NCBI GenBank assembly: GCA_963575745.1
Contig: CAUYUJ010000026.1
Coordinates: 558,001-622,000, forward strand
Source of the DNA: Prorocentrum cordatum
Lineage: Eukaryota
Direction: 5' to 3'
Length of the DNA stretch: 64,000 nt
Below are positions 19,638-42,702 of the stretch, one piece after another. Made by a program: the position numbers and the translations under genes. A model generated the notes under the pieces. It was not told the origin of the DNA, did no database searches, and saw only the letters and a program-made list of their open reading frames with translations. Numbering within the stretch: the first letter of the stretch is position 1; the number at the start of each line of letters is the position of its first letter.

Positions 19638-21360
19638 GAGGAGGAGGAGGAGGAGGGGAGGAGGAGGGGAGGAGGAGGAGGCAGGGGAGGAGGAGGAGGA
19701 GAGGAGGAGGAGAGGAGGAGGAGGAGGAGGAGGAGGAGGAGGAGGAGGAGAGGAGGAGGGGAGGAGAGGAGAGGAGGAGGGAGGAGGAGAGGAGGAGGAG
19801 GAGGAGAGAGGAGAGGAGAGGAGGAGGAGGAGGGAGGAGGAGGAGGAGGAGGAGGAGGAGGAGGAGGAGAGGAGGAGGAGGAGGAGGAGGAGGAGGAGAG
19901 GAGGAGGAGGAGGAGAGGATGAAAGGAGGGGAGGAGAGGAGGAGAGGAGGAGGAGGAGGAGGAGGAGGAGGAGGAGGAGGAGGAGGGGAGAGGAGGAGGA
20001 GGAGGAGGAGGGGAGGGGAGGAGGACGACGAGGAGGAGGGGAAGAAAAGAAGAAGCAGAGGAGGAGGAGGAGGAGGAGGAGGGGAGGAGGGGGAGGGGAG
20101 GGGGGTAGGAGAGAGGAAGAGAGGAGGAGGAGAGAGGGGAAGAGGAGGGGAGGAGGGGAGGCGGGGAGGAGAGGAGAGGAGAAGAGGAGGAGGAGGAGGG
20201 AGGAGGAGGAGAGGAGGAGGAGGAGGAGGAGAGGGAGAGAGAAGGAGGGGAGGAGAGGAGAGAGAGGAGAGGATGAGGAGGAGAGGGGGGGGAAAAGAGG
20301 AGAGGAGGAGGGAGGAGGGGAGGAGGAGGGGGAGGAGGAGGGAGGCGAAGGAGGAGGAGGAGAGGGGAGAGAGAAAAGAAGCAGCTGGTGAGGGTGAGGG
20401 GGAGAGGAGGAGGAGGAGGAGGAGGAGGGGAAGGATGAGGAGGAGGCGGAGCGGAGATGGAAGGAGGATTATGATGATGATATGAATGATGATGTGATGA
20501 TGATGATGATGATCTGATGATGAGATGATGGATGATGATGATGATGATGATGAGAGGGAGAGGAGGGAGGAGGAGGAGGGAGGAGGAGAGGTGGAGGAGG
20601 AGGAGGGGGAAGGGAGGAGGAGGCGAGGAGGAGGAGGCGGAGGAGGAGGCATCATAATAATAACACGAATACTAATAATCATGATAATAATAACAACAAT
20701 ACGAATACGAATACTAGTATTAACAACAATATTAATAATAATAATAATAATAATAATAACAATAACAATAAGAATAATATTATTTACAATAATGACAACA
20801 ACAATGATATTAATAATAATGATAATAATAAAACTAATAATAATATTACTAATAATAAGAATACTAATAATAATAAACAGGAGGATGATGGTGCTGATGA
20901 TGATGATGAGGAGGAGGAGGAGGAGGATACGGAGGAGGAGGAGGAGGAGGAGGAGGAGAAGAAGGAGGAGAAGAATAATAAGAAGCAGCTGGAGGAGGAT
21001 GAGGGAGGAGGAGGAGGAGCGGAGGAGGGGGAGGAGAGGAAGAAGAAGAAGAACAGGAGGAGGAGGAGGAGGAGGCGGAATAATAAGAAAAAAAAGCGGA
21101 GGAGGAGGAGGAGGCGGAGGAGGAGGAGGAGAGGAGAGGAGGAGGAGGAGGAGGATGAGGAGGAGGAGGAGGAGGAGGAGGAGGAGGAGGAGGAGGAGGA
21201 GGAGGAGGAGGAGGAGAGGGGAGGAGGAGGAGGAGGAGAGGAGGAGGAGGAGGAGGAGGAGGAGGAGGAGGAGGGGGGGAGGAGGAGGAGGAGGAGGAGG
21301 AGGAGGAGGAGGAGGGGGGGAGGAGGAGGAGGAGGCGGAGGAGGAGGACGAGGAGGAGCG
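19606..21360. repeat. Compound microsatellite (GGA)n-(ATG)n-(AAT)n-(GGA)n
   Basis: Direct; source of the poly-R/E/G/I/L/P ORFs. Confidence 0.95.
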
Positions 21361-21520
21361 TGCCCGTCTGAGCGCAGGGGGCCCCGCGCTTGGCACCGGA
21401 GCACCGCGGCGGCCGCGCCGGGGCGGCGGGGGGCTGGGCGCCGCACGTGCGGCCCGTCGACCTGGAGCTGAGGCGCGCCCTGGTCGAGCAGTGGCGAAGC
21501 GTCCTGGCGTGCCTAGAGTT

Positions 21521-28424: not shown

Positions 28425-28444
28425 CTCATCATCATCATCATCAT

Positions 28445-28495
<51 letters not shown>

Positions 28496-28539
28496 TATCA
28501 TCATCATCCTCCTCCTCCTCCTCCTCCTCCTCCTCCTCG

Positions 28540-28582
<43 letters not shown>

Positions 28583-28634
28583 TACGTTCATAATCGTCGT
28601 CGTCATCATCGTCATCGTCACCATCATCGTCGTT

Positions 28635-28683
<49 letters not shown>

Positions 28684-28840
28684 GCATCAGCATCAGCATC
28701 AGCATCATCATCAACATCATCATCCGCAGCATTATCATCATCATCATCGTCGTCATCATCATCACCTCCGTCACCATCACCATCAGTATCACCTCCACCA
28801 TCATCATCAGCATCATCATCATGATCATCATCACCATCTC
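28425..28840. repeat. (CAT)n microsatellite
   Basis: Direct; source of the poly-H/I/M/D ORFs. Confidence 0.95.
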
Positions 28841-29199
28841 CCTCTTGTTTCACCCGCCACTCCCTCTCCCTCTTATCTTGCCCTCCTTCCTGGTTCCCCC
28901 CCGTCTCCTCTGTCCTCCCCTCGTCGTCCTCCTTCCCGTTGTCCTCCGCTTCCGCCCATCCTCCCCAGTCCCCCTCCTCCTGCTCATACCTTACAAGAAA
29001 GGTAGAAGGAGGAGAGAGACCTACGTTTCTACGTTTCTCGCTATGCAGCGTCTTGTCGTGCGCCCCGCGGGCGCGGAGCGCTCTGCAGCGGCCCTCTAGG
29101 GCCGTGCGGGCACTCAAACAGCGGCCCCGGGAACCCGACCCCGAGGAAAGTAGGGAGCCAGGGACCAATAAAACAGAGAGGAGGGAGAAAGGGGGCCGG

Positions 29200-31110
29200 G
29201 TTTCAGCAAAAATAAAAAGATGAGGGCCCGTCTGGGCCCTCAGCGGGCGCCGCGCTCGCCCGTGCCAGCTCAGGCAGCACGGCGCGCAGCCAGGCCTTCG
29301 GCCTCTTTGTGGGCGGTCGGCCTCTTGTGTGGCGGCTGGGCTCCCTTCGGCGCCTCGCGCTGAGCCCAGCCGCCGTGTCATCGGATGGATGGCCGCCTTC
29401 TCTGCGGCGGCCTCCACCCTTCGGCGCATGGCGCTGTGGAGGCCCGCCAAGCCTCTCTTGGACTTCGGCGGCCCTGCAGCAATCTCCTCGCCTGTCACGC
29501 GAGGCTGGGGCAGGCCTCGCCGTGGCGCACGATGCGCCGCCTCCTTCACTTTGCTTGGGCTCCTCTGAGATGTCGTACGTGCTGAGCACCGCTTCAGATG
29601 TGGCAGGCTCATCACGCCACGCTGCTGAGGACCCTGCTCCTGTCCTCCTTTCAGCGGGCTGGGCTAGTCAAGGTGGTGGTTGCTGTTGGTGGGGTGGAGG
29701 TTCTGGGGTTGATGTCTTCGTGGTGCCTCGCAGCTGAGGGCCCTGCTCCTGTCCTCCTTTCTGCGGGCATGCCATCTGGAGATTGGTTCTGAGGACCCTA
29801 CTCCTGTCCTCCTTTTCAGTGTCTCCATGGCGTGCTGATCGAGCCTGGCTGTTGAGGACCCTGCTCCTGTCCTCCTTTCAGCAGGCACTGTCATGGTTGA
29901 GCCGTGCCGCACTGCTGAGGACCCTGCTCCTGTCCTCCTTTCAGTGGGCTGGTGGAATCGAGGTGGTGGTGGTTGGATGGGTGGTGGTTGCGGGCTGGGT
30001 GATCAGTCGGTGGCGAGTCCCATAGGCTGTAGATGGTCGTATTGAGTGTCTATGGTCAGGTCGTGGGGATAGCGTAATGTTGCTGGGGTTGTGTTGTGGG
30101 TTATGGGCGCACCTGAGAGGCCTCCATGCACCGACTTCAAGTGGGGTTCGTGGCGGCCCCACCTCGTCCCGCTATGGCTAGGGGTCACGGTGCCCTCGGT
30201 GGGGGCGAACCCCAGGCCTGGTGCTTGCTGTTGTCGTCGGTGGGGAATGTCTCTGCTGCCTTCAGCTTCGCCTCGTCGGCGATCGGGTAAGCTCCTCCTT
30301 CGCCATGGGAATGGTGGGGGTGGCGAGCTAGGGCGGACCGCGGGGGCGCGGGTAGTGGCCGTCCTACCCCCCCCCTGCCCCTCACCATCCCCGCTGGCGG
30401 GCGCGGGAAGTACTCGTCCTTCCCCCCCAGCCCTTCGAGCCCGTCTCGAAGTTTGATCCTCACCAAGACAGCGTTGACTTGGCAGGAGTTGTAGGGGGTC
30501 GTGCTGGGTATGATGTCGATGTCGGTCGGTGGTACGCTGACGGCCAATGGGCCGCCCGCTGCCAGCCAGCTGGCGCCATCCATATTGTAGATCTCCAGGA
30601 GCCGCCGCGGTACGCATCAAAACGTGGCGACATGTGCCTGGGGTGTTCCCTCGCATTCGGGGCTTCCCCAGGTCTTGCGTTCTAACAATAGCCAAGATTG
30701 GCGACGCTGCCTGAGGTCTTCCCACGCATTCGGGGCTTCCTCAGGACTTAATAAGCGCACACCGTAATGCCAGTCCAGGGCCAAATAATCATAGTAAACA
30801 ATGCCAATGTTAGGAAAGTCAATAAATCCAGCAGGTGCTCGAGGGGGGGGCACGCTCCGTCGCCATTGAGGGATCGTGCCCACCCGTATGGGCGCTACGG
30901 GTCCCCCCCCCTCGAGATGGCACGCAATCGTTGTCCAGGTCGCATCCGTACCAGTAACCCGTTGGCAACAGGGTATTGGGCCATGCCGTAGGTGCGCTGA
31001 TGCTGACACTTCTGCTGCCAATCTGAAATACTCTGTATACAATATTGTAATGCCAGCTGCCATCAAATCTGTAGCAAGCCGGTGGTCTGCGCCAAATTGC
31101 AGACCAGTGT
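29200..31110 (-). ncRNA. Putative structured RNA region (LINE 3' UTR)
   Basis: Three duplicated stem-loop motif classes with covarying stems, plus other hairpins at 29221-29242, 30838-30916 and ~31083-31106. Strand assumed from the element. Confidence 0.5.
29626..29944. repeat. Repeat-spacer array: five 29-30 bp hairpin repeats (TGAGGACCCTGCTCCTGTCCTCCTTTCAG) with 80/26/33/34-bp variable spacers, in the LINE 3' region
   Basis: Repeats at 29626-29654, 29735-29763, 29790-29819, 29853-29881, 29916-29944; stem GAGGAC/GTCCTC with 9-nt loop. Confidence 0.9.
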
Positions 31111-31190
31111 TCCCTTACGGGGCAAAAGTAGATAATACTGGACGCTTGACTCGACTAGCTGCACCAAATAAGCCGCTGCAGTGCCAATTG

Positions 31191-34100
31191 CTAGCGCCGA
31201 TGGTTGCCCCATGCCCTGTGACAATCATGGCCGATCTGGTCTGTCTCCATGTAGTGATCCAAGGGGGCGTAGAACCTGTGGTAGCAGTCGTCCGTTTCGG
31301 CCCACATTGCCTCTTCGTCAGCAAGCTGCCCCCAGTGGGCTGCGAAGGCGGTAGCCATTGCCTTGCACAGCCTTGATGGATACTCTTTGAGGGGGGCGGT
31401 CCTCCAGCCGCCTTGGCCGTCTCGTCCGTAAGCTCCGGCATGTCCCGCATGTCGGCATAGCTGTCCCCCAGGTACCGCCCTTAGCTCCTGTGCGAGTTCA
31501 CCGAGGTGTGCCGCCATCAGACATGTTGGTTTTCTCGCGTCCTGCCCGAACTGGCACTGGTCTATGTAGTGAAGTTCGACGCCCGTCTGCTCCAGGAGCC
31601 AGAGCGTCTCTGCTCGCTGCCAGCTGCTAGGCGCTTGGGGGCACCATGTGGCTGGGGCGGGATGCTCGAGTACGGCTGAGACGTTGTACTGCAGGCCCGT
31701 GGTGATGAGTAGTAAAGCTGTCCTGTATAGCTCGTTGGCTAGTGCGATCTGTTGATGCTCCGCTTGGCTAGCTGCTTGTATGCCCCAGGGGGCTTCATGT
31801 GTACGTAGTGGTCGAGGTGCCTTCCCCTCGGCAGCATGCCAGCGCGATGAGCACCACGTCTCGCAGGGCGGGCCCGCCACAATACCAAATATTTTGCCCT
31901 GTCGTATCGCTGCGCACCAAAAGTCGACGACGTCTGGCTTCGTCAGGTCTCCTTTGACGGGGTCTATCTGCACGTCGATCGATAGTACTACCAAGTTGCA
32001 TTCCCGAATGTTCATCTCGAAGTGGTACTGGAAATCCTCGATTCGACGTCTGCCCGAGAAAAGGTGCAGCAAGAACATAGCCGTGGTAACCATGGGCCTG
32101 CACGGTGAGAATACGATTGCAGGTGGTGTCGCTGTTTGGACGTCCGCTGCCGCTGGCGGGGCCGGCGAGAGTTGGAGCTGGTGCTGCTCTATGTAGTCGG
32201 CCAGCTTGAGCTGTATGACCTGTTGGGCGGGCACCAGCGCCTTTGTAGCTCCATGCCCCATTGCCTTCCTCGCCGCCACAGCTTCTCGTTCTTCTTCTCG
32301 GCGTTCGGCTGCCTCCTGCAAATCCATTGGGACCTCGATTGCTTGGAGGACCGCCAGGCATTTGGGGCACCTTCTCAGGTGCTTGAGTATGCGGGATCTC
32401 GTTATGAAGTTCTTCCCGCACCCAGGGCAGGTAGTCGAACGGGCAAGCAATTCGGGAAGGTCGTAGCCGATGTGTTCCATGGTGCGATGGCGCTTCCATG
32501 CTCCCCGAGTTTTTAATATCTTGCCACACTCATAGCATATGTAGCCACAGTGCTGTGCGGGCGGCAGCCCCTCGAAGTTGGGCGTGGTCATTCCAAACTC
32601 TTGCGCAAGACGGTGTAGCTGCCTTTGCCAAACTCGATGTCGATATATGTCGTGCTGCCATGCTTTGTACCTGAGCCACGCACGGGTGATCGTGGCTTGT
32701 GCGGCTCGCACGTGCTGTGTGCGTAGCCATCGTAACAATCCCCTGATGTCGCTGCCGATGTCCTCGTCGTCTAGTAGGAAACTTCTTATCCAGTCCAGAT
32801 CTTCGACGATAAGAGCATTCCAGGCCTTCTCATCCTCCCAGAGTTCGTCGATGAGGCGGTGGAGGAAGGGCGTGTCTGCATGCGCCATCCTGGCCAGGTA
32901 CATCAGGCGCCGTCGGCGCAGGTACATGTGGATCGGTACTTCGTCGCACAGCAAGTATATTTCGTCATCCAAGGTATGTGCCTGTCCCGCGCTGTGTCGC
33001 TGTTGTCTTGCGGCGGCCCGCAGACTCGCCATGTGTCTGCTCTGCAGCATCTGCTTCTGCTGTACTGTAAGTGGTCCCCACACTTCGCAGTCGTAGGTCA
33101 GCTTGCTTTGCGCCAGTGCCGTGAGGTACAACAGCTTGGCCTTGAGGTCGATGTGCGGCAGGCGGAAGATGGACTTCTTCAAGGGGCCCTCTGCGGATCT
33201 GTGGTCTATGATGCGTCTCATAAGGTTCGGCCCCTCCCCACCATCACTCGTCACGATATTGCCCAGTGTGAGTCCCTGGGTCGTGACCTCCGCCGTTGAC
33301 ACTTCAGTGCTCGTTGGCGGCTGACCATCCTCGCGCCGCAGCGTGATGGGATTTGTCTTGAAAATCTTCGCCTTGATATGCTGCTTGGCGTGCCCATCGA
33401 TATGCAGCAACGCTTTAGTCTTCTTGGGGTGTAGGTCATGCCCGAAGATCTTGAGTCTCCTTGCAATGATGGACAATATGTCGAAGATGCTGCTCTCGAT
33501 TTTCGTGTTGTCGTTAAGTACGCACAGGAATGTCGCGTCGTCCATGAAGGATACTTCTGGCAGGGTCCCTTCCAGCCCTTGGAGCTGGCCTGACGTGACA
33601 ATGGCTTGTTCGCCCGCTGGTGGTAGTTGTAGTAGGTACCCTCCTGCATGTAGCTCCTGCTCCAGTGGGCCCAGAGCGTGCGCGAAGCTGATGTTGAAGA
33701 TGAGGTCGGCCAGGCCGTTGCCTGGGCGTGTGCCCTTGCGGCTCTCCGCGCAAAGCTCTTCTCCCCGCACTTGGAAGAATGTCGTGTCGTGTGCTTCCTC
33801 TAGCTGGAATCGCAGGTTCTCGTCTACATCGTTGAGTGCTAAGTAGCCTGGAGACGCTATCAGCTGCTGGATGGCCGGCATGAGCCATTCAGGTGGAGCG
33901 CCTCCTGCCATCACCTTTAGGAGCCAAGGCTTCTCCCCTTCCCGTCCCAGCACAAATTCTCGAATAACTGAATAAAAGGCCTGTCGTAGATCCAGCAGGA
34001 TGCCGACTGCGCTGAGACGTCTCCGCCTGCAGATCCTGAAGAACGCTTTGATAGTATGGGTGGAGTACGCGCCTGACTTCTTCGGGATTCCGCCATGCTG

Positions 34101-37100
34101 GGTGACTCTCAGCAGGCTGCTGCAGACCCTCAACGTAGTTGCGCGGAGCCACTTGTGGTAGTGCTTGGCCACGGTGTTGTTGAGGAGGATCGACCTGTAA
34201 TATTCCAGGAGGGCCCTCGTGCCGCTACCCTTGTACAGCTTCACTGCAATACCTGCTTTAAATTGGATCGGTTCTCGGCCTCGCAGTATCGTCTTCAAGA
34301 CGACTGGGTACCAGTGGCGGGCCGTCTCCTCGGGTGCGAGTTTGAGGATGTCGTCCAAATTGCCGTCGGGTCCTCCTGCTCGGCCCTTCTTGCCGTCCGC
34401 AAAGCTCTCCACCAAATCGTTGAGTGTCATGTGCAGGTGCTGGGAGACCTCGTCGGGTGGCGATCTGTGGGTACGGCTGATATTGTAGCGGTCCGCCAGG
34501 TCGTACTTGTCCCTGATGTCGGCTGACTCGATCTTGGCGAAGTGCTGCAGGGTGGCTCTGCTGATCTCGCCCTGGCTGCCCATGACGGTGCCGTCGGGCT
34601 GCTGCATAGTGGGCAGCGCGCTAACATATTTTGGTTTGCGGCCGCCGTGGATCAGAATCTTCTTTGTCAGCTGCCACTCGGTCCTGGCGTCTCTTGCTGT
34701 TCTGCTATCCGCCAATTTGCTGCCAAGTTCGTGAAAGTAATGGTTGCGGTCTGTACTCAGTTGGTGTCTGAACGTGTCCTTGGTGTGGTCGATGAAGAGC
34801 CTGGCCGCGTCATGTGCGATGCCGAGGCAGCCGGTGGCACGACTGAGCTGGCACGCTTCAACAAGGGCTGCCACAGAGCAGTACCAGCTATCTTCCACAC
34901 GGGCATAGACAGGCGCCTCGTGGCAGAGCCTCTTGCGGAAAACTTCAAGAGGTGCTGGGTCCCCGTTGTTCGTGTAGGTCCGCGTGGAGCTCTCAGCGTA
35001 TCTGCGCAGCCTCAATAGGCGCATGCTAGCCTCTGAGATTGTGACGTTGCAAGGGGTAAGCGGGTCCCGTCCGAAATGCTGCTTCGTCTTCTCGACAAGG
35101 AGTCCCGCTGTCTCGTGGTAATGGTCGTTGACGTCTGCCTTCCACGGTGGTAAGCTGATGTTGTTCAGGTCCTGCTTGAATGCGGTGATGCGCTCTGGGT
35201 TCTTGAGTTTGTTAGTATCCAATAACCCGTTCCCCTTCGAACTACGGTGGCGCCCGATGATTTCGCCCACAACTTCAACTAGCACGGGCATGTGGTCTGT
35301 GGTCGTGTCGTAGCCGTTCTGGGCGTAGTTCCTCCTCTGCTTGTTGTGCTCGTTCTTCTTTTTGGCGGTTGGCTTTTGAAAGTCTCTCAAGACAGTGCAA
35401 GCCGCCACGCACTTGAACAGGCAGGGAGCCATGGCGACGTAGTCGATGCGGTTGGAGATCCCGTCCTTGTGGTACGTGTAATCGTCGTTGTTCCCGTAGT
35501 ATGTGTTGACGACGTGCAGGTGGCAGCTGGCGACAGTCTCGTGGAATTCGTGTCCATTCTTGTCTGTCGGCTGATTTGGACCTTTCTGGCCCAACCATTG
35601 AGTGTCCTCTCCGTCCTTGTGGCTTAGCTTGGCGTTCGCGTCGATGAGCAGGATCTCTGGTTTCCACGTGTCACACAGCTCCCTGAAGTGCTCCCACCAG
35701 CCGTTGATGTCCTTGGCCTTCTGGTACGGGGCATGAGCAACGGCGATGACGTGATGGAACAAAGGAGCCTGCACGCGGACAAGGAGAATCCTGGCTGACG
35801 AGTACAGTTTTGTCAGCTGGGACTGCTTGAAGTACAGGTCTTTCCCTTTGAGCCGCCCGTACGGTAACTCGACGTTGAGTAGTAGTGCACATCCCCAGTT
35901 GCCGTCCTGCGCATCGCTCTGGATGTTGATAAAGCCTTGTCCTGTCCATATGGCCTCTCTACAGCGTGTCTCCTGCAGCCCCGCGACGTGTACATGGTGG
36001 TCCAGAAGCTGGGCTCTGACTAGAGCCCCTTTACTGGAGATGTCCAGGTGCAGGTCTGTGGAGGTGAAGTCGCCCACCATGGACTGAGCGTTGTACTGCA
36101 CGATGTTGAGCTTCAGCGTGCCCTTGTTGTAGCTGTCTGCGGTGAGGTCGGGGATGTGGTCTGCGTCAGCCCGCTGGGGCGAGACGTGTTCCTCGAGCCG
36201 TCCATGCCTCCACGGTGGGTACGCATGTAGGTCATTGCCCGCAGGATTAGCCATCCAAGCCCATTCGAGTGTGCTGGTATACTGTACTATATTGACTAGC
36301 TCTTCGGCAGGTGGTGGTGGCGCTGGTTGGAGTGCGGCATATTTTGATAGAATATCTGCTGCTTCATTCCAGGGTGCGTCTCGATGCGCATGAGTGTGCT
36401 CGAAGCTAATGTCCTTTGTGAGCTGTAACTGCTGGAATAATATGCGTGTAAACCTCGCAAGAGGGCGGTTCCTACTCGATCTGATCCGCGATGTTCCAGC
36501 TGCCGCTCCCAAAACCGCGGTGTTGTCTCCGATAATGACGATTTCCTGCTCATCGTCCTCCTGTGTACATGCGATGCCTGCCCAGAGTAGCGCTCCCAAT
36601 TCGGGGCTGGTGCTGGAGGTGATGTTGTTGGCCATCTCCTCGCTGACGGACAGGGCGTGGTTGGAGTACATGTGCCTGTAGTAGGCGATGCCCTGGTCGT
36701 CCTCTCTCAGGTGTACCACTGCCCATGCTGATGTACCCGGTGCTTTGGCATGGTAGGACGCGTCGGTGAAGTAGTAGTGCCGCTTCACAGCCGACAAAGG
36801 TCTCGAGGGAGCAAGGTGCTTCACCGCCAGCCTGGTATGCTCGTGCAGGTCGTGCTCTTCGAGGTCGTAATGCCATGTCAGCTTCTGGATGTGTTGCTGG
36901 AATTGCGTCGGTAGGAACTGTGGGGATCCGATGTTGAGGAAGCGTCGCTGCGTGCTGTTGCTGTCACTGCGCTGGTCGGTTTTGTGCGCTTGCCCGTGTG
37001 TTGCTGGTCTAGTTCTTTGTCGTCGTCTCCTTCTGCGCTCGCAGCGCCGGTAGTCGTCGCTGTACTCGCTGTCAGTGCTGGTGTGTTGGCTAGTGCGTTG

Positions 37101-38861
37101 GTTGTCTCGGGCGTCTTCCGCCGTTGTGCTCCGCCTAGTTGGGATGCGGAAGGGGTACATGGCTGGGGTTGTACGTCGTTGTGGTGCGGAGATGGGTTGT
37201 TGCCGCCCCGTCGGCTGCCCGCTAGCTCCGTGGTAGCTCCTAAACGGCAGCATTGCTCGTCGGGGATGTGAGTCCCTCTGGGGTTGGGGGTGCTGTCTGG
37301 CATTAGTCGTTGCGTCTGGGAGTGGTTGCTCGGTCTCCAAGTGGTCGGTTGGCTTGTAGGGCTTGGTCCCCGTCCGCGTCGTGCTCCTTTCCCGTGGGGA
37401 CGGCGGCTTTTGGCAGCACTTCTCATCGGCGTTCAAGTTGTCCGATCCAGCCCGCACGGCCTGACTGAACAGGAGCTCGTGTGATTGGGCTTGGAGCATG
37501 CTGTCACGTAGTCGATGAGATATGCCGCCATGAGGGTCGGTTGGGTTCGGTGGTGGAAAGATAGGTAGTGCTGGCTCTGCGCGTTGCTCTTGAGGGTCTA
37601 GGTTTGGTTTGGCTGGTGTCGGTGGCGGGAGTGTAGATGAATGCTCGTCGTTGGACCTGGTTGAGCGCCCCAGCACGACATCGCTGTCACGAGAGCAAGG
37701 CATCGGCCACCCTCCCGTCGGAGGCATGCTCTCGCGTCTTCGCACCTGCAAGGGGGAGTCAACCCGCAGCTGCTCGGGGAGAGCAGGTCCGTCCGTCGAC
37801 GGCCTTGCAGAGTGAGGCGACCCCGCGCTGACACGCCAACGCGGGTAGGTCCTGGTCGGTACGTTATGTTGTTTGGACTCGTCAGAGCGAGGAGTCTGCT
37901 CTGCTGATGTGTACCGAGGCGCTGCCCTCCAAGTAGTACGCGACCTCGGACAGGTGCTGCGCTCTCGACTCGGGCACTCGCTGGCGGAGCCCAAGTCCTG
38001 CTCCTCAGGATGTTCCGCTCCAGGAGGCTGAGTGCTATCTGGCAGTGCTTCGTCCTCGCAGATGCTGCTGTCCGCAAGCGCCTCGAAGGGGTTATTGATC
38101 AGCGGCACTCCAAAGTCTGGTCGCATCTCCACCCTGTGCGCCTGTCTTAGTAATCTTTTGCGCCTCGCCACTCTTCTTTCCCTTGCAACAGCTGTGGCGT
38201 CGTTGGGGTGCGGTTCTGCTGCTGTAGGGCTGTAGCTTTTGCTGTCAAGGTATGTGTCCTGTATTTGCTCTAGCTGGTAGGCTTGTATGGGTCCATGCTG
38301 TATCTGTCGATTGTAGTCAGTGCTTGGTTGTGTCGTGGTGCCTGCATTTAATTTGGCTGACGCTGGTGGACTAGCCAGCCCTCTAGGGGTCTTTGTGCTT
38401 GCCGTGTGGTCTGCTTGCGAGCCCAGGTGGCTGGGGTCGGGAGGTTGGCGGGCAAGCCAGGCTCCGTCGTCTGCAAGCGTGGGGTGCTCCTCGAGTACCC
38501 GGCGCTGGGAGACCTCCAGATGTGATGGATCTGGTAGTCTCGACCTGCTGCCTGGGTCCTCCTTCGCATGGCTGTGCTGCCTGGGCTGCGACGCCGCATG
38601 GGCCGCCGCGGCTCCCGCGAAGTGGGATGTCGAACCAGGCGTGGCCAAGGGGTGTCGCCTTGGTCCACGCTGTTGGCACTGCGTCGGACTGCTCGAGTAG
38701 CTCTCCCACTCTTGTTGCAGCCTCACCCTGTCGCGGTGCTGGTTGCTTGTCTGAACCCCGCTGGCAGTGGGGCTCGCGGCCTGAGGGAGTCGCTCAGGTC
38801 CGCGCTTGGAGCGCTCAGACTTGATGTCGCCGTTCTGTGGGTGGTCCCCACCCTTGCCCAC
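31191..38861 (-). CDS. LINE ORF2: low-complexity N-terminus, RNase H, APE endonuclease, reverse transcriptase, 2 C2H2-like zinc fingers, C5-cytosine methyltransferase
   Basis: RNase H YFTDAS..PELGA..IGDN..HTHAH..WNEAAD (~36785-36340); APE QYNAQS..GLQETR..IDANA..RIDY..TDHMP (~36110-35270); RT AGGPDG..YRSI..DLRQAF..GTRPG..FMDD (~34390-33250); CYECGK..H..H and CPGCGK..KH (~32550-32380); DNMT LHLFSG..SID..GPPCETW..EHP..QCQFG..KPT..EYP (~32080-31330). 2556 codons uninterrupted; true start uncertain. Confidence 0.95.
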   Translation of the reverse strand: MGKGGDHPQNGDIKSERSKRGPERLPQAASPTASGVQTSNQHRDRVRLQQEWESYSSSPTQCQQRGPRRHPLATPGSTSHFAGAAAAHAASQPRQHSHAKEDPGSRSRLPDPSHLEVSQRRVLEEHPTLADDGAWLARQPPDPSHLGSQADHTASTKTPRGLASPPASAKLNAGTTTQPSTDYNRQIQHGPIQAYQLEQIQDTYLDSKSYSPTAAEPHPNDATAVARERRVARRKRLLRQAHRVEMRPDFGVPLINNPFEALADSSICEDEALPDSTQPPGAEHPEEQDLGSASECPSRERSTCPRSRTTWRAAPRYTSAEQTPRSDESKQHNVPTRTYPRWRVSAGSPHSARPSTDGPALPEQLRVDSPLQVRRRESMPPTGGWPMPCSRDSDVVLGRSTRSNDEHSSTLPPPTPAKPNLDPQEQRAEPALPIFPPPNPTDPHGGISHRLRDSMLQAQSHELLFSQAVRAGSDNLNADEKCCQKPPSPRERSTTRTGTKPYKPTDHLETEQPLPDATTNARQHPQPQRDSHPRRAMLPFRSYHGASGQPTGRQQPISAPQRRTTPAMYPFRIPTRRSTTAEDARDNQRTSQHTSTDSEYSDDYRRCERRRRRRQRTRPATHGQAHKTDQRSDSNSTQRRFLNIGSPQFLPTQFQQHIQKLTWHYDLEEHDLHEHTRLAVKHLAPSRPLSAVKRHYYFTDASYHAKAPGTSAWAVVHLREDDQGIAYYRHMYSNHALSVSEEMANNITSSTSPELGALLWAGIACTQEDDEQEIVIIGDNTAVLGAAAGTSRIRSSRNRPLARFTRILFQQLQLTKDISFEHTHAHRDAPWNEAADILSKYAALQPAPPPPAEELVNIVQYTSTLEWAWMANPAGNDLHAYPPWRHGRLEEHVSPQRADADHIPDLTADSYNKGTLKLNIVQYNAQSMVGDFTSTDLHLDISSKGALVRAQLLDHHVHVAGLQETRCREAIWTGQGFINIQSDAQDGNWGCALLLNVELPYGRLKGKDLYFKQSQLTKLYSSARILLVRVQAPLFHHVIAVAHAPYQKAKDINGWWEHFRELCDTWKPEILLIDANAKLSHKDGEDTQWLGQKGPNQPTDKNGHEFHETVASCHLHVVNTYYGNNDDYTYHKDGISNRIDYVAMAPCLFKCVAACTVLRDFQKPTAKKKNEHNKQRRNYAQNGYDTTTDHMPVLVEVVGEIIGRHRSSKGNGLLDTNKLKNPERITAFKQDLNNISLPPWKADVNDHYHETAGLLVEKTKQHFGRDPLTPCNVTISEASMRLLRLRRYAESSTRTYTNNGDPAPLEVFRKRLCHEAPVYARVEDSWYCSVAALVEACQLSRATGCLGIAHDAARLFIDHTKDTFRHQLSTDRNHYFHELGSKLADSRTARDARTEWQLTKKILIHGGRKPKYVSALPTMQQPDGTVMGSQGEISRATLQHFAKIESADIRDKYDLADRYNISRTHRSPPDEVSQHLHMTLNDLVESFADGKKGRAGGPDGNLDDILKLAPEETARHWYPVVLKTILRGREPIQFKAGIAVKLYKGSGTRALLEYYRSILLNNTVAKHYHKWLRATTLRVCSSLLRVTQHGGIPKKSGAYSTHTIKAFFRICRRRRLSAVGILLDLRQAFYSVIREFVLGREGEKPWLLKVMAGGAPPEWLMPAIQQLIASPGYLALNDVDENLRFQLEEAHDTTFFQVRGEELCAESRKGTRPGNGLADLIFNISFAHALGPLEQELHAGGYLLQLPPAGEQAIVTSGQLQGLEGTLPEVSFMDDATFLCVLNDNTKIESSIFDILSIIARRLKIFGHDLHPKKTKALLHIDGHAKQHIKAKIFKTNPITLRREDGQPPTSTEVSTAEVTTQGLTLGNIVTSDGGEGPNLMRRIIDHRSAEGPLKKSIFRLPHIDLKAKLLYLTALAQSKLTYDCEVWGPLTVQQKQMLQSRHMASLRAAARQQRHSAGQAHTLDDEIYLLCDEVPIHMYLRRRRLMYLARMAHADTPFLHRLIDELWEDEKAWNALIVEDLDWIRSFLLDDEDIGSDIRGLLRWLRTQHVRAAQATITRAWLRYKAWQHDIYRHRVWQRQLHRLAQEFGMTTPNFEGLPPAQHCGYICYECGKILKTRGAWKRHRTMEHIGYDLPELLARSTTCPGCGKNFITRSRILKHLRRCPKCLAVLQAIEVPMDLQEAAERREEEREAVAARKAMGHGATKALVPAQQVIQLKLADYIEQHQLQLSPAPPAAADVQTATPPAIVFSPCRPMVTTAMFLLHLFSGRRRIEDFQYHFEMNIRECNLVVLSIDVQIDPVKGDLTKPDVVDFWCAAIRQGKIFGIVAGPPCETWCSSRWHAAEGKAPRPLRTHEAPWGIQAASQAEHQQIALANELYRTALLLITTGLQYNVSAVLEHPAPATWCPQAPSSWQRAETLWLLEQTGVELHYIDQCQFGQDARKPTCLMAAHLGELAQELRAVPGGQLCRHAGHAGAYGRDGQGGWRTAPLKEYPSRLCKAMATAFAAHWGQLADEEAMWAETDDCYHRFYAPLDHYMETDQIGHDCHRAWGNHRR

Positions 38862-39181
38862 AGACGCGGCGTCTAGGGAGCTGGTAGTGCAGGTAGTTCG
38901 TCTGCTGCGCCTCTTGAGTCGGGGCTCCCTAGTAGAGCGTTGGTGGTTTGAAGCGGATGCGGCATCCCCCAGGCTCGCATCGGCTTGGACATAGCTATGT
39001 AGTGTGATGGAGGCTAGGTGCGATCGTGTGCGTATGGCCGAAAGCCATGGATGTGGGTCGTTGGGCGTAGGCTCGTCACCGCACGGGTCTCTGAGTCTGG
39101 GCCCGATGTCCCCGATATCTTCTGGTGTAGTTGTCTGGACGCAGGTCTGGGCCAGTTGCCCCCCAGCCTGCGTACTCCGTA

Positions 39182-42100
39182 TCAGTTTTTTGACAGTCGA
39201 CCCCCGTCGAGGTCGCTCTCGCCGCTCTCGATGAATGATGCCACTCTGTCACCTGGGTCCGCGAAGCCATCGTCCGCGTCGCAGATCCTGACCTTTTTCG
39301 GCTGGCTCCTCGCCCTCCTGGGTTCCCTTGGTTGCTTCAAGTTACCTCTGCATGGAGGTGCCGAGCTCGTCCTCTCTGGTGTGCCCAAGTGGAAACGCGG
39401 TGGTGGCAGTCGTGGCTCGTGTGGCTCGGTGGGCGTGATATCCTCAATCGGCATCCGTGGAGGTGTGCTGGGGCAATCCTCCTCGTCGCGGCTGAGGTCG
39501 ATGAACAGCGTCGTCATGGGAGTCTTGGCTGTCTGTGAACGCTGTTGTGGGGTCTTGTGTGGCGTGAGAGGCGTGACGGGCGGAAACAGAATGTGTCTTG
39601 GCGTGGGCTGTTCCGTCGGGATGGGTGAGTCGGCTGGTATCGTTGGTGAGAGTGAGGCGAGGTCTGTCGGGGCTTCGCCCTCCTTCTCCTTGCGCAGGCC
39701 TTGGCGGTTCTTCAAATCTTCGTCCAGCAAGTCAGCGTCGTCGGATTCGCCAATTGGGATGCAATCGCTGCTCGCCCGTACCTCGCGCATCCCTGAGTGC
39801 GAAAAGGAGCCGACCCTGTTGTACTCCTCGATGTGCTGGCGCTGCTGAGGTAGTGGTGGGGGGAGCGGCCACTCTTCGGCGGATGTCCTCGGCACAAAGC
39901 TTTGGTTCTGGAAGCTGAGGTCGTCGCTCGACGAGGGGGTAGGCTCCTCTGGCGTTGGCATAGACGATGTATGGGACCTCTCTCCAAATCCCACCTCGGC
40001 CAGCTCCTCGAGGTACGGCGGCAGTTCTGGATGTGGAAGTTCGTACTGGCTAGGTAGCAGCCGAAGTAAGTCTGCCTCAAGTTGCTCCCTCTGGTACGCG
40101 CCCTCCTGGTCCGCCATGCCTTGGTCGCGCTCGCTCGTGGCCGTGTCTCCCATGAGGTCATCCGTCATGTCGATTAGCAGGTCTTCGTCCACTTGTCCTC
40201 CTGCTCCCCAGGCATCCCGTAGTGCAGTCTGGAGTCCTGCCGTTTGCAAATCATGTGCCCGTTGGAGTTCTTGTAATTGTTGCTGCCTCTGCGCTTCGTT
40301 CATATGATGGTTGTGGGCGTAGTGCTGCGCGATGGCCTGCATCTCCTGCTGGCACTGGTGCTGCAGTGTGCTGTGGTACTGATGAGCCGCTTGGTTCTCC
40401 ATCTCCTGCTGCTGCTGTAGTGCATGGAGTTCGCTTGTGGCTGCTGCTTGTCGCTGCAGTGCCACCTCCTCCATCCTTTGGGCCTTGTCCACCTCCTCCT
40501 GGTGCTCGCCGACGCGCTCCAGATACCTTTCCTGCTCGTGCTGCATCTCGTATGCCTTCGCCTGGATGGCTGCGTGCTCCAGGTTCAGGACGACCCGCAT
40601 CGCTTCGCGCTTGTTGGCTTCTTCCTGATGCTCGTGGGCCATCTGCTGGTAGTTCACTGCGATCCGCAGCTCCTCCTCCTTATAAGCGCTGTGGCGGGCG
40701 CATCTCTCCTGGTACTCCGCCTCCGCCATCTCCTGCACCGCCTTCTCGTTGTGCTCCTGCGCCATCTTGTACCACTGGGCCTCTTGGGTTGCCATCTCTC
40801 TCACAACTTGCTCTTCCTGCCTGGCCTTCTGGACCTGCTGCGTGTAGATGGCTGCTCTTCTCTGGTCTTCCTTGTGCATCTCCTCGCGCAAGGTCTTCTT
40901 TTCCATCTCGATATGCATTTGCAGGTCTGCGAGCATCCCTTTGGCCCTTTCCTCCTGTGTCCTCTGGGTGCCTCTTTGTGCTTCGTATGCTTTTGCTTCC
41001 TCCTCCTCTAGCTTGGCGTTGTGGTGCCGCTTGAGAGCGTTGACCTCCCAAGTGTGCCACTTCTCCTGCTTGGCCAACTGCGCTTCGGTCGTGTGGTACA
41101 TCTTTTGCTCGATGGTCTGCTCGTAGGCCTTCAGTTCGCTTTTGTGCTTGAACTCTGCTTGTGCTAGTAGGTCGCTTTGCTGCTGTTCTTTTTTCTGCTG
41201 CGAATCAAGCCTCTCGGTCAATCTCCTGATGGCGTCTTTGATCTCGTCTGATGCTGCTGGGACTGGTCGGGGCTGCTGGGCTGGGGCTGGCTGAGCTGTG
41301 GCTGGTTGAGCCGTGGCCGGTGCCGCTGGAGCTGCCGCATGGTCGCGCCTTCTCCTTGCGGCCGGGTGTGGCGTGCGTCCTCTGGTGGGATCATGGCTCC
41401 CGTCTTCATCGGACGATTCGTCCTTTACTCCTGCCGCCTTGGCCATTTGATCTCTGGTTTCCCTCATCAGGGTTTTGTAGACCCTGATGGTTCTGGCGGC
41501 CGTCGCCTCCTGGTCCAGCATCTTGCTGAGCCGCTTCTCCATCTCGGCATGCTCCTCCTCCAGCTTTTCCAGCGTGGCCCTGAGCTGCTTCATGCGCTCT
41601 TTGTGGGGCAGGACGAAGGAGATGTTCGCGGCGGTGATCGCCGCTTCCTGCTCGAGGCTGGTTGTGCACAAGCCGGCCAGCCTAGCGCCTGCGATGTTCT
41701 CGGTGAGCCGACCCAGCCTGTGGCACTTGGTCTTGTACCACACGAACCTCATCTCTTCGTCATCTGGAGGTGCGGACCAGCTCTCGTGCTCCATCGCGAC
41801 GGCGAAGGAGACTGGCGTGATGCTGTCCAGGACTGCCTTCTGCTGGGGGCTGTACTGGTAGCTGCCGATGTGGGCTGCGGCAGGCGTGTCGAGCTGGTCC
41901 CTCCTTCTGCGCCTGCCGCTTCTCCTTCTGGCTGAGGCGCTCCTCCAGGGCGCTCTGTGCTTCCAGTGCTGGTCGCTGTCGCTTTGCTGCTGGTGCTTGT
42001 GGGTCTGTGGCTGCTGCTGCTGCTGCTGGTGGCGCTTGTGGGTCTGTGGCTGCTGCTGCTGCTGCTGACTATGCTGCTGCCACTCCCAAGGCCGCCCACC

Positions 42101-42283
42101 AATGGCTCCGTAGTCGCCAGTCCAGTCTGCGCTGCGCTGGCGCTGCGCCTGGGCTGTGGACCCTGCTCCTGTCCACCTTTTCCCAGGGCCGCGCTGAGGC
42201 GCCTCGAGGTGTGTGGTCCCTGCTCCTGACCACCTTTCCCTCGAGGCGCCTCGCTGCTGCTGCTGCTTCCAACTCTTCGCCAT
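39182..42283 (-). CDS. LINE ORF1, long Q/E/A-rich coiled-coil protein
   Basis: Open frame of >1000 codons directly upstream of ORF2 and inside the TSDs; first ATG at 42283 (MAKSWKQ); charged heptad-like composition. Confidence 0.85.
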   Translation of the reverse strand: MAKSWKQQQQRGASRERWSGAGTTHLEAPQRGPGKRWTGAGSTAQAQRQRSADWTGDYGAIGGRPWEWQQHSQQQQQQPQTHKRHQQQQQQPQTHKHQQQSDSDQHWKHRAPWRSASARRRSGRRRRRDQLDTPAAAHIGSYQYSPQQKAVLDSITPVSFAVAMEHESWSAPPDDEEMRFVWYKTKCHRLGRLTENIAGARLAGLCTTSLEQEAAITAANISFVLPHKERMKQLRATLEKLEEEHAEMEKRLSKMLDQEATAARTIRVYKTLMRETRDQMAKAAGVKDESSDEDGSHDPTRGRTPHPAARRRRDHAAAPAAPATAQPATAQPAPAQQPRPVPAASDEIKDAIRRLTERLDSQQKKEQQQSDLLAQAEFKHKSELKAYEQTIEQKMYHTTEAQLAKQEKWHTWEVNALKRHHNAKLEEEEAKAYEAQRGTQRTQEERAKGMLADLQMHIEMEKKTLREEMHKEDQRRAAIYTQQVQKARQEEQVVREMATQEAQWYKMAQEHNEKAVQEMAEAEYQERCARHSAYKEEELRIAVNYQQMAHEHQEEANKREAMRVVLNLEHAAIQAKAYEMQHEQERYLERVGEHQEEVDKAQRMEEVALQRQAAATSELHALQQQQEMENQAAHQYHSTLQHQCQQEMQAIAQHYAHNHHMNEAQRQQQLQELQRAHDLQTAGLQTALRDAWGAGGQVDEDLLIDMTDDLMGDTATSERDQGMADQEGAYQREQLEADLLRLLPSQYELPHPELPPYLEELAEVGFGERSHTSSMPTPEEPTPSSSDDLSFQNQSFVPRTSAEEWPLPPPLPQQRQHIEEYNRVGSFSHSGMREVRASSDCIPIGESDDADLLDEDLKNRQGLRKEKEGEAPTDLASLSPTIPADSPIPTEQPTPRHILFPPVTPLTPHKTPQQRSQTAKTPMTTLFIDLSRDEEDCPSTPPRMPIEDITPTEPHEPRLPPPRFHLGTPERTSSAPPCRGNLKQPREPRRARSQPKKVRICDADDGFADPGDRVASFIESGESDLDGGRLSKN

Positions 42284-42702
42284 GTTGTCGAAGGGCTGTG
42301 CTGAGTGATGATCTGCAAGTAGTCGGGAGGCCTCGACTACCTTCAAGAGTGTCCTGGCGTGGCCTCGCGCTATGCGGGCCCTCCTGTGCCAACTTTCTTC
42401 CTTCTGCCTGGGCGTCTTTCTTTAGCCTAGGCGTCGCGGCCGCGGCGCTTCTCTTCAGCTTTGACTCTTTAATGGCGCCGCGGCGCGCTGGCCCGGGCTG
42501 ACGGGGCTGGCCGAACGAGGGGACGACACGACCCCACGCGGCGGCGGGCCCCTCCTCAGCCCGTGGCTTAGGAGAGAGACCTCCTCCTCCACCTCGTTCC
42601 CCTTATGTTGCGTCCGCATCTATAATCCATTCCTCTCCCTCTCTCCCTCTCTCCCTCTCTCCTCCCCCTCCGGCCTCGCCCTTCCCCTGCCCAGCCTTTT
42701 CC

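What the first reader, a model, noticed from the sequence alone, without database searches (positions are those of the whole stretch)
29626..29944. CRISPR-like hairpin repeat-spacer array in the 3' region of a DNA-methyltransferase-encoding LINE
Seen: five near-identical 29-30 bp repeats (TGAGGACCCTGCTCCTGTCCTCCTTTCAG), each folding as a GAGGAC/GTCCTC stem with a 9-nt loop, separated by dissimilar spacers of 80, 26, 33 and 34 bp. They lie inside the element's TSDs, ~1.25 kb downstream of the methyltransferase stop. The repeats are far better conserved than the spacers, unlike an ordinary minisatellite. Caveat: spacer 1 resembles the sequence after repeat 5, and spacer 4 resembles the sequence before repeat 1, so the array may have grown by duplication. 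Inference: the repeats are under selection as protein-binding or processing hairpins, either a multivalent ORF1p/ORF2p landing pad or precursors of small RNAs. I know of no description of such an array in a LINE.
Basis: partly seen in the sequence, partly recalled or inferred. Interest (0 to 1): 0.88.

Follow-up and report, generated by a model that had tools for sequence, protein, structure and literature searches.

The report
Tandem covarying hairpins in a LINE
A young, intact LINE retrotransposon carries seven copies of one extended nucleic-acid hairpin, five in its 3' untranslated region and two near its 5' end, which look like structure-selected binding sites rather than a CRISPR-like repeat-spacer array.

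Summary
The five repeats are real and sit at the stated coordinates. They are not repeats separated by unrelated spacers. The sequence on either side of each repeat pairs with itself, so each unit is a 48-70 nt extended hairpin. Its parts are a lower stem of 8-15 bp, an asymmetric internal loop (CT / CTTT), a 6-bp upper stem and an invariant 9-nt loop.

- **Conservation.** Lower stems differ between units by compensatory changes, while the apical 27 nt are 96% identical and the flanks about 40%.
- **Flank specificity.** Each unit's own flanks fold better than swapped flanks. The native arrangement is the best of 5040 permutations.
- **Further copies.** Two more units with compensatory upper-stem changes lie at 42145-42252, just after the first ATG of ORF1.
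- **Second hairpin family.** It lies at 29331-29448.
- **The element.** A 13,547-bp minus-strand LINE (29023-42569) with 13-bp target-site duplications.
- **Other copies.** Contigs from other copies show variable unit numbers.

Best reading (about 0.5): cis-acting, protein-binding hairpins of the LINE RNA. The folded strand is unresolved and no RNA data were available. The methyltransferase label is unconfirmed. The CRISPR analogy fails.

The parts
29023..42569 (-). Full-length LINE (13,547 bp): 5' region, ORF1, ORF2, 2,168-nt 3' UTR
   Evidence: Bounded by 13-bp direct repeats. Contigs in runs X1 and X2 stop matching at exactly 42569 (table 8). Weak Pfam hits in order to RNase H-like RVT_3, Exo_endo_phos_2 and RVT_1.
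29010..29022 (.). Target-site duplication, 3' side (AGGAGAGAGACCT)
   Evidence: only 2 matches in 64 kb.
42570..42582 (.). Target-site duplication, 5' side
39185..42283 (-). ORF1 from the first ATG (1,033 aa, long coiled-coil-like Q/E/K-rich part). Hairpins A and B lie within codons 10-47.
   Evidence: Relatives P0002-P0005.
31191..39248 (-). ORF2 open frame (2,685 codons plus stop): RNase H-like, AP endonuclease, RT, C2H2 zinc fingers, and a C-terminal domain of unconfirmed identity containing GPPC
29616..29663 (.). Type I hairpin U1 (lower stem GCC-a-CGCTG / CAGCG-GGC)
29725..29772 (.). Type I hairpin U2 (lower stem CGCAG/CTGCG, compensatory relative to U1). The upper stem has G.T on + and C.A on -.
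29769..29833 (.). Type I hairpin U3 (its own long lower stem; loop G>A; internal loop one T longer)
29843..29890 (.). Type I hairpin U4
29906..29953 (.). Type I hairpin U5 (lower stem CACTG/CAGTG, compensatory relative to U1)
42145..42192 (.). Type I hairpin A (upper stem GTGGAC/GTCCAC, lower stem CCTGGG/CCCAGG), in the first codons of ORF1
42196..42252 (.). Type I hairpin B (upper stem GTGGTC/GACCAC; 14-bp perfect lower stem). z = -7.6 on + and -6.7 on -.
29331..29374 (.). Type II hairpin 1 (13-bp stem, conserved apical CCTTC + GGCGC-loop-GCGCT)
   Evidence: z = -5.0 on both strands.
29406..29448 (.). Type II hairpin 2 (same apical part, different complementary lower stem)
29664..29724 (.). 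G/T-rich linker after U1, duplicate of the linker after U5
   Evidence: 44 of 64 aligned columns identical.
29954..30014 (.). G/T-rich linker after U5
29023..29038 (-). 8-nt terminal tandem repeat at the 3' end of the LINE, about 2 copies, no poly(A)

Best explanation
The array is a set of tandem, extended stem-loops that belong to the LINE itself. Five lie in the 3' UTR and two just inside the 5' end of ORF1.

I infer that they act in the LINE's RNA as sequence-and-structure-specific binding sites. The invariant 9-nt loop, the CT/CTTT internal loop and the upper stem would be what is read. The lower stem would be needed only to hold the fold. Several copies at both ends of the RNA would give multivalent, cis-preferential loading of a protein. 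That protein could be the element's own coiled-coil ORF1 protein or its ORF2 zinc-finger/C-terminal part, or a host export or stability factor. Unit number changes by tandem duplication.

Shown here: the repeats, the common fold, the covariation, the unit-specific pairing, the restriction to the LINE within this window, and the variation in unit number among copies.

Inferred, not shown: that RNA rather than cDNA is the folded molecule, that a protein binds, and which protein.
For: 1. All 7 units give the same architecture in minimum-free-energy folds.
2. On a model-fitted alignment, 8 of 14 pairs show changes on both sides. Paired cells are 85.7% against 70.6% in shuffles (0 of 500 reach it). 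The covariation score is 0.405 against 0.155 (0 of 500).
3. Native left and right flanks fold at a mean of -24.9 kcal/mol against -17.5 for the 42 chimeras. The native arrangement is the best of 5040 permutations on either strand, and the best of 120 for the five array units alone.
4. The apical 27 nt are 96% identical among array units. The 16-nt flanks are 43% and 40% identical. The 15 unpaired apical bases are 94.6% identical across all 7 units.
5. U1, U2 and U5 differ in the lower stem only by two fully compensated pairs and the bulged base.
6. A covariance model finds only these 7 units in 64 kb (52-70 bits). The next best match scores 13.5 bits, E = 0.3.
7. The element is young and intact, with a perfect 13-bp duplication and a 2,685-codon open ORF2. 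The units therefore diverged in an active lineage.
8. Contigs from 4 runs show joints that add or reorder units at both sites, for example 42240>42145 at depth 22.5, and 29882>29599 in two runs.
9. A related ORF1 N-terminus, P0005, has three motif units. One has a Pro/Ala pair that fits a further compensated stem, if the codons are as guessed.
Against: - No RNA data. No listed run was RNA, so neither expression, strand nor processing is known.
- The strand is unresolved and leans the other way. Minimum-free-energy folds use 16 G.U pairs of 148 on the + strand and 0 of 131 on the LINE sense strand. The apical hairpin of U2 drops from -6.2 to -3.0 kcal/mol on the sense strand. Part of this follows from the A-rich, T-poor sense strand.
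- Stability alone is unremarkable. Only 2 of 7 units have z below -3 on the + strand, and the whole array has z = -1.1 on + and -0.4 on -.
- All covariation is between paralogous units of one element. No full second copy could be fetched.
- The alignment used was fitted to the structure.
- Word depth in run X1 is lower over 29309-29767 (148) than over the rest of the element (about 300-600). Some copies may therefore differ there or lack that part.
- No binding test was possible.
Confidence: 0.5

Rival explanations
1. The same hairpins function on the opposite (+) strand. That strand is either the first-strand cDNA made during target-primed reverse transcription or an antisense transcript.
For: - G.U or G.T pairs occur only on the + strand: 16 against 0 in the folds.
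- Within the core stems, U2 has one, U3 two, and both type II hairpins one each.
- 4 of 5 array units fold better on + than on -.
- All 7 units keep the fold with DNA parameters, at -10 to -25.7 kcal/mol.
Against: - The + strand is T-rich and A-poor across the whole LINE. From composition alone about 2.9 times more G.T pairs are expected there.
- Most of the 16 pairs lie in outer extensions of uncertain reality.
- There is no evidence for antisense transcription.
- I know of no role for internal cDNA hairpins in LINE integration (recalled).
Confidence: 0.2
2. The array is a non-functional by-product. A hairpin-prone unit expanded by tandem duplication or RT slippage. Template switching within the inverted repeats, or short-tract conversion, keeps the arms complementary and the cores alike without selection.
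For: - The units are clearly duplicates: the U1 block matches the U5 block at 84%.
- Unit numbers vary among copies.
- Stability z-scores are modest.
- Intrastrand template switching is known to create perfect inverted repeats in one step (recalled).
Against: - A neutral process does not explain why 15 unpaired apical bases stay 94.6% identical while the flanks fall to about 40%.
- It does not explain why the same apical module is kept at two sites 12 kb apart with different stems.
- Conversion tracts of 27 nt with sharp edges are unlikely (inference).
Confidence: 0.15
3. The hairpins are precursors of small RNAs, a clustered miRNA-like or siRNA locus that regulates the LINE.
For: Five 50-70 nt hairpins in tandem resemble a polycistronic precursor. 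On the + strand the stems reach 20-24 pairs.
Against: - Conservation is highest in the loop and apical stem and lowest in the arms. That is the reverse of the usual miRNA pattern (recalled).
- The duplexes are short and are interrupted by a 2/4-nt internal loop.
- There was no Rfam match at the array.
- No small-RNA data exist here.
Confidence: 0.07
4. The repeats are double-stranded DNA sites, such as promoter or enhancer modules or palindromic transcription-factor sites, repeated in the LINE.
For: Two units sit near the 5' end, where LINE internal promoters lie. Repeated UTR modules are known in other LINEs (recalled).
Against: - Half-site sequences change (GAGGAC, GTGGAC, GTGGTC) while always staying complementary.
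- The lower stems are unrelated in sequence but are always complementary.
- That pattern is the signature of base pairing, not of half-site recognition.
Confidence: 0.05
5. It is a CRISPR-like repeat-spacer memory array.
For: Only the superficial look of conserved hairpin repeats with variable sequence between them.
Against: - The 'spacers' pair with each other and are homologous among units.
- Spacing is irregular, at 109, 55, 63 and 63.
- There was no match of the array to phage records or elsewhere in the window.
- There are no cas-like genes, and the context is a eukaryotic LINE.
Confidence: 0.01

Closest known systems
3' UTR stem-loops recognised by the reverse transcriptase of 'stringent-type' LINEs (recalled), and the conserved 3' stem-loop proposed for human L1/Alu (PMC5135761; search listing and abstract only)
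   Same: A LINE-borne hairpin in the 3' UTR, thought to mark the element's own RNA for its own machinery. This element also ends in a short tandem repeat and has no poly(A).
   Different: Those are single hairpins next to the 3' terminus. Here there are five tandem copies 594-930 nt from the 3' end, two more copies at the 5' end, and a second hairpin family.
R2 retrotransposon protein-binding RNA segments at the 3' UTR and at the start of the ORF (PMC11194090, search listing and abstract only; the 5' segment is recalled)
   Same: Element RNA carries binding structures at both ends, one of them overlapping the start of the coding region.
   Different: The R2 segments are two different, larger folds. 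Here the same small hairpin is used at both ends and in several copies. This element has an AP-type endonuclease (weak Pfam hit), not the R2 type.
Iron-responsive elements: several tandem hairpins in one mRNA's 3' UTR and a single one in another mRNA's 5' UTR (recalled)
   Same: A short upper stem, a sequence-specific loop, an interruption in the stem and a freely varying lower stem. They are multicopy in a 3' UTR and also used near a 5' end.
   Different: There is no sequence relation. This is a host regulatory system, not a transposon. It is an analogy of design only.
Dispersed packaging-signal stem-loops of single-stranded RNA viruses (recalled)
   Same: Many stem-loops share a loop motif on variable stems and act together to recruit a multimeric coat protein.
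   Different: A LINE forms a ribonucleoprotein, not a capsid. Binding is untested here.
SymbioLINE-Dnmt of dinoflagellates (PMC5890265; passages read)
   Same: A LINE with target-site duplications, conserved 5' and 3' UTRs and no poly(A), said to carry a cytosine methyltransferase.
   Different: There the methyltransferase is in ORF1, upstream of the RT ORF. Here the candidate domain is at the C-terminus of ORF2 and is not confirmed by any profile. That paper's text has no occurrence of 'hairpin', 'stem-loop' or 'tandem repeat'.
CRISPR arrays
   Same: Conserved, partly palindromic repeats with less conserved sequence between them.
   Different: See the membership test: spacing, spacer nature, gene context and host all fail.

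Membership tests
CRISPR array | Regularly spaced identical repeats separated by unique spacers of near-constant length | tested here: not met
   Spacing is 109, 55, 63 and 63. The intervening sequences are homologous to each other and pair with each other as lower stems.
CRISPR array | Spacers derived from foreign DNA | tested here: not met
   No match of 29600-30020 to 50,697 phage records. Within the window the spacers match only each other. The host genome and eukaryotic viruses could not be searched.
CRISPR array | Neighbouring cas genes in a prokaryotic or viral genome | tested here: not met
   The array lies in the 3' UTR of a eukaryote-type LINE with AP endonuclease and RT hits.
Neutral minisatellite | Head-to-tail units that diverge evenly along the unit | tested here: not met
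   Tandem Repeats Finder reports no array over 29616-29953. Identity is 96% in the apical 27 nt against 43% and 40% in the flanks.
Structured cis-acting RNA element (generic) | A common fold kept by compensatory base changes | tested here: met
   8 of 14 pairs changed on both sides. Covariation 0.405 against 0.155, 0 of 500 shuffles reach it. The native flank arrangement is the best of 5040. Caveats: the units are paralogues within one element, and the alignment was fitted to the model.
Structured cis-acting RNA element (generic) | Transcribed, and folded in the transcript | not testable with these tools
   No RNA run was listed. Only contigs of DNA, or of unknown kind, were laid.
Stringent-type LINE 3' recognition hairpin | Hairpin directly upstream of the 3' terminal repeat | tested here: not met
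   Type I units lie 594-930 nt from the 3' end at 29023. Other hairpins do fold at 29039-29110, but their conservation is unknown.
Stringent-type LINE 3' recognition hairpin | Bound by the element's RT and required for retrotransposition | not testable with these tools
   Needs biochemistry or a retrotransposition assay.
miRNA-like precursor cluster | Arms better conserved than the loop; duplex of about 21 bp or more; small RNAs mapped | tested here: not met
   The loop and apical stem are the best conserved part and the arms the least. The stems are interrupted. There are no small-RNA data.
C5 DNA methyltransferase (Pfam PF00145), claimed for the ORF2 C-terminus | Significant match to the family profile or to a solved member | tested here: not met
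   No hit at E up to 10 in Pfam or NCBIfam. PDB sequences give only zinc-finger matches. The nearest named ESM Atlas cluster is PF00145 at 0.86, below the tool's 0.9 line. The single-sequence model has pLDDT 38.9 and is unusable.
C5 DNA methyltransferase (Pfam PF00145), claimed for the ORF2 C-terminus | Catalytic Pro-Cys motif and a glycine-rich cofactor motif | tested here: inconclusive
   The translation holds ...LFSGRR... and ...AGPPCE.... That these correspond to the family's motifs is recalled, not aligned.
LINE (non-LTR retrotransposon) | AP endonuclease plus RT in one ORF, target-site duplication, no LTRs | tested here: met
   Exo_endo_phos_2 at E = 0.0019 and RVT_1 at E = 0.0015, both below Pfam's cut-offs but in the expected order. 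13-bp duplication. High copy number in run X1.

The most novel reading that the evidence does not exclude
The hairpin is an 'address label' that this LINE family writes at both ends of its RNA, and even inside the ORF1 coding sequence, in variable copy number.

It would be read by the element's own unusual ORF2 C-terminal zinc-finger plus methyltransferase-like module, or by its coiled-coil ORF1 protein. In the boldest form, the C-rich unpaired loop (CCTGCTCCT on the cDNA strand) would be the substrate that this module modifies during reverse transcription. That would link the captured enzyme-like domain to a dedicated nucleic-acid target.
Probability: 0.1. Interest if true: 0.8.

Novelty: new variant of a known kind. 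Interest (0 to 1): 0.5.

Why it matters
LINEs must favour their own RNA over cellular RNA, and for most families the signal is unknown. Here a single intact element already gives a testable candidate. It is a small hairpin with an invariant loop, kept by compensatory changes, repeated five times in the 3' UTR and twice at the 5' end. Unit number varies among copies.

If it is the binding site of an element or host protein, it would be a compact and mutable model of cis-preference, or of RNA export or stability control, in an algal LINE. It would also give a handle on what the unidentified ORF2 C-terminal domain does.

If it is a neutral by-product, it is a clean example of how tandem duplication and inverted repeats can mimic selected structure.

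Tried and rejected
- **Whole genome.** None is held.
- **Other DNA copies.** (loop plus CTTT pattern in viral contigs) gave 119 matches in 118 loci. Only 1 had even 4 of 5 complementary flank bases, so they are chance hits and serve as a control. (two loop cores 35-65 nt apart in metagenome contigs) was my poor choice of a low-complexity pattern. None had 2 or more hairpin-competent cores and none is related to the LINE. The only metagenome scan was thus spent.
- **Specific hairpin pattern.** 0 matches in viral contigs and 0 in genome contigs.
- **The search for related loci with the ORF2 C-terminus.** No relatives in viral contigs or genome contigs.
- **Other LINE copies in the window.** None by tblastn.
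- **Protein searches.** ORF1 residues 1-140 and 125-330 at near-full length gave nothing. The 70-aa N-terminus returned only P0005.
- **Sequencing runs.** No RNA holder was listed, so expression, strand and processing were not examined.
- **Rfam.** Two sub-threshold chance matches, neither at the hairpins.
- **Density of perfect hairpins.** Arm 9 or more, loop 3-20: 3 in the 3' UTR against 0.48 per kb elsewhere. Too few to use.
- **Whole-array folding energy.** Not distinguishable from shuffles.
- **Structure of the ORF2 C-terminus.** pLDDT 38.9, so no fold search was run.
- **Earlier findings of this scan.** Four look-ups, nothing.
- **Splice-acceptor reading.** On the + strand the repeat looks like a branch point, pyrimidine tract and CAG. 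I dropped this because the CAG is part of the lower stem and changes to CTG in U2 with a compensating change opposite.
- **Protein-coding repeat.** The 55- and 109-nt spacings break the frame, and stops interrupt all frames across the array.
Full report
**Observation.** The five repeats are in the sequence exactly as described. The 28-nt core with up to 3 mismatches occurs 4 times in the window against 0.00 expected, 0 of 100 shuffles. The fifth copy, the third in order, carries a 1-nt insertion and a loop G>A change. The gaps are 80, 26, 33 and 34 nt.

**Context.**
- The array lies in a LINE on the minus strand.
- A 13-nt direct repeat occurs only at 29010-29022 and 42570-42582. It bounds a 13,547-bp element, 29023-42569.
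- Contigs in two sequencing runs stop matching at exactly 42569 (table 8).
- On the sense strand the element has a 5' leader, then ORF1 (first ATG at 42283, stop at 39182; 1,033 aa).
- ORF2 is an open frame of 2,685 codons, 39248-31191. Its Pfam hits are weak but correctly ordered: an RNase H-like domain, an AP endonuclease and a reverse transcriptase. C2H2 zinc fingers follow.
- The 3' UTR is 2,168 nt and ends in about 2 copies of an 8-nt unit, with no poly(A).
- The array is 1,247 nt past the ORF2 stop and 594-930 nt before the 3' end.
- The family is high-copy in run X1 and is present in marine and estuary metagenome runs.
- The nearest protein relatives of ORF1 carry a source name of a Pyramimonas species, a green alga.

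**What the units really are.**
- The bases flanking each repeat are complementary to each other.
- As RNA on the + strand, 7 of 7 units fold into one architecture. This has a lower stem of 8-15 bp, usually with one bulge; an internal loop of CU opposite CUUU (CUUUU or CUUUC in three units); the 6-bp upper stem; and the 9-nt loop.
- The same fold appears on the minus strand, except that the upper stem of unit 2 is weakened. It also appears with DNA parameters, 7 of 7.
- So most of each 'spacer' is stem. What remains is two G/T-rich linkers, which are duplicates of each other.

**More copies.**
- The loop motif with complementary 6-nt flanks also occurs at 42156-42182 and 42213-42240. These are on the same strand, within the first 47 codons after the ORF1 ATG.
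- Their upper stems are GTGGAC/GTCCAC and GTGGTC/GACCAC, against GAGGAC/GTCCTC in the array. That is two different double, compensating changes around an unchanged loop.
- Their lower stems are unrelated in sequence to those of the array but are fully complementary. One is a perfect 14-bp stem with z = -7.6.
- A covariance model built from the seven units finds only those seven in the 64 kb, at 52-70 bits. The next best match is 13.5 bits, E = 0.3.
- A second hairpin family lies at 29331-29374 and 29406-29448. It has a shared apical part and different complementary lower stems.

**Is the structure more than chance?**
- On the model-fitted alignment, 8 of 14 pairs have changes on both sides. 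85.7% of cells pair against 70.6% in shuffles (0 of 500 reach it). The covariation score is 0.405 against 0.155 (0 of 500). Sliding the partners by 1-3 columns gives 42-59% paired. This alignment has no gaps, so the three units with a 5-nt internal loop are out of register in the lower helix. It was also fitted to the model, which leans the other way.
- A test free of alignment joined each unit's left flank and apical part to every unit's right flank. Native combinations fold at a mean of -24.9 kcal/mol and the 42 chimeras at -17.5 (sd 3.3). The native arrangement is the single best of all 5040 permutations on either strand. It is also the best of 120 for the five array units alone.
- Units 1, 2 and 5 differ in their lower stems only by two fully compensated pairs and by the bulged base.
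- Conservation is sharply uneven. The apical 27 nt are 96% identical among array units. The 16-nt flanks are 43% and 40% identical. The 15 unpaired apical bases are 94.6% identical over all seven units.
- Against this, stability itself is ordinary for this G+C-rich DNA. Unit z-scores on the + strand are -1.9, -1.9, -3.3, -1.0, -2.4, -2.2 and -7.6. The whole array scores -1.1 on + and -0.4 on -.

**Other copies.**
- I could not fetch a second full copy (see Tried and rejected).
- Contigs of four runs laid at 80% likeness or better show joints inside both hairpin sites (tables 5 and 5c):
  - 29882 back to 29599, with 6 letters between, in two runs.
  - 29657 back to 29609, with 14 letters between, which gives a 63-nt period.
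  - 42240 back to 42145, with 15 letters between, which is a 111-nt unit, at depth 22.5.
  - 42240 back to 42203.
  - Several low-depth contigs in which a B-type hairpin follows or precedes the type II hairpin region (29369-29375 joined to 42207-42213; 42245 joined to 29336).
- Unit number and order therefore vary among copies while the cores stay recognisable.
- Depth in X1 is lower over 29309-29767 (148) than over most of the element. This may mean assembly breaks at the repeats, or it may mean real differences among copies.
- A related ORF1 N-terminus, P0005 (63% identity), has three motif units instead of two.
- A more distant ORF1 relative, P0002 (47% identity in the conserved domain), has no such units. 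The segment that holds them is about 100 residues shorter there. The hairpin module thus looks like an insertion into a tolerant linker.

**Which strand?**
- This is not resolved.
- Minimum-free-energy folds use 16 G.U pairs of 148 on the + strand and none of 131 on the LINE sense strand. 4 of 5 array units fold better on +.
- However, the sense strand is A-rich and T-poor across the whole element. That alone predicts roughly three times more G.U pairs on +. Many of the 16 pairs also lie in outer extensions.
- I therefore keep sense RNA as the prior favourite and give the cDNA or antisense reading about 0.2.

**Mechanism.**
- The pattern is an invariant loop and internal loop, a short upper stem that may change only in compensated fashion, and a free lower stem. 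That is the pattern of a hairpin read by a protein.
- Several copies at both ends of the RNA suggest multivalent, cis-preferential loading. The protein could be the element's own coiled-coil ORF1 protein or its ORF2 zinc-finger region, or a host export or stability factor.
- All of this is inference.
- Rivals, with evidence for and against, are set out in Rival explanations:
  - function on the cDNA or antisense strand;
  - a neutral product of duplication plus template switching;
  - small-RNA precursors;
  - double-stranded DNA sites;
  - the CRISPR analogy.
- The CRISPR analogy fails every defining feature that was tested.

**The 'methyltransferase'.**
- The ORF2 C-terminus contains ...LFSGRR... 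and ...AGPPCE.... From memory these resemble motifs of cytosine-5 methyltransferases.
- No profile or solved sequence supports this. Pfam and NCBIfam give no hit at E up to 10, and PDB sequences match only the zinc finger.
- The ESM Atlas gives unnamed clusters first and a PF00145 cluster only at 0.86.
- The single-sequence model was unusable, with pLDDT 38.9.
- In the known dinoflagellate DNMT-LINEs the enzyme is in ORF1 (PMC5890265, passages read). If this domain is real, it would be a different arrangement.

**Literature.**
- Two full-text searches returned no description of tandem hairpin arrays in a LINE. One combined non-LTR retrotransposon, stem-loop, tandem and UTR terms. The other combined LINE, tandem hairpins, stem-loops, packaging signal and ORF1p.
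- I read only the listings and abstracts of those results. Subscription papers are not covered.
- Single 3' stem-loops (PMC5135761) and the R2 RNA determinants (PMC11194090) are the nearest items listed.

**Verdict.** It is a new variant of LINE cis-acting hairpins, not a repeat-spacer system. Interest 0.5.

Noticed in passing
window 39185-39195 (minus strand), with 39125-39170: ORF2 is open in the -1 frame relative to ORF1 and overlaps it by 64 nt. It has no ATG for about 385 codons. The last ORF1 codons read ...TCA AAA AAC TGA, which contains the heptamer A AAA AAC directly before the stop. From memory this fits the classic -1 frameshift pattern. A 12-bp bulged hairpin starts about 11 nt downstream (z = -1.8). 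This suggests ORF1-ORF2 fusion by -1 ribosomal frameshifting.
   Followed up: partly
window 29331-29374 and 29406-29448: A second hairpin family in the same 3' UTR. The apical part is conserved (CCTTC, then GGCGC-triloop-GCGCT) on two different complementary 12-13 bp lower stems. z = -5.0 and -2.9 on the + strand. In contigs of other copies it is joined to B-type type I hairpins.
   Followed up: partly
window 42300-42421 (minus strand): The ORF1 frame is open for 46 codons upstream of the first ATG. That stretch is 55% identical over 33 residues (E = 5e-7) to the N-terminal part of the distant ORF1 relative P0002. Translation may start upstream at a non-ATG codon, or the leader may be conserved for another reason.
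   Followed up: partly
window 28426-28838: A 413-bp (TCA)n microsatellite, about 138 units at 83% matches, lies about 185 nt outside the LINE's 3' end. Similar trinucleotide-rich tracts recur across the window, for example around 19600-21400, 46900-48300 and 10300-10870.
   Followed up: no
window 29664-29724 and 29954-30014: G/T-rich linkers with GGTGG runs on the + strand (the cDNA strand) follow units 1 and 5. Tandem Repeats Finder calls an 18-nt period at 29962-30001. A possible G-quadruplex was not examined.
   Followed up: no
window 36972-39248 (minus strand): The first ~760 residues of the ORF2 frame are low-complexity and rich in P, S, T, R and Q. They have no family match.
   Followed up: no
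L076 (viral contigs, a giant-virus bin contig), 1501-1610: Three exact matches to the loop+CTTT pattern at 45-nt spacing. The flanks are not hairpin-competent. It is probably a coding repeat unrelated to this finding.
   Followed up: partly
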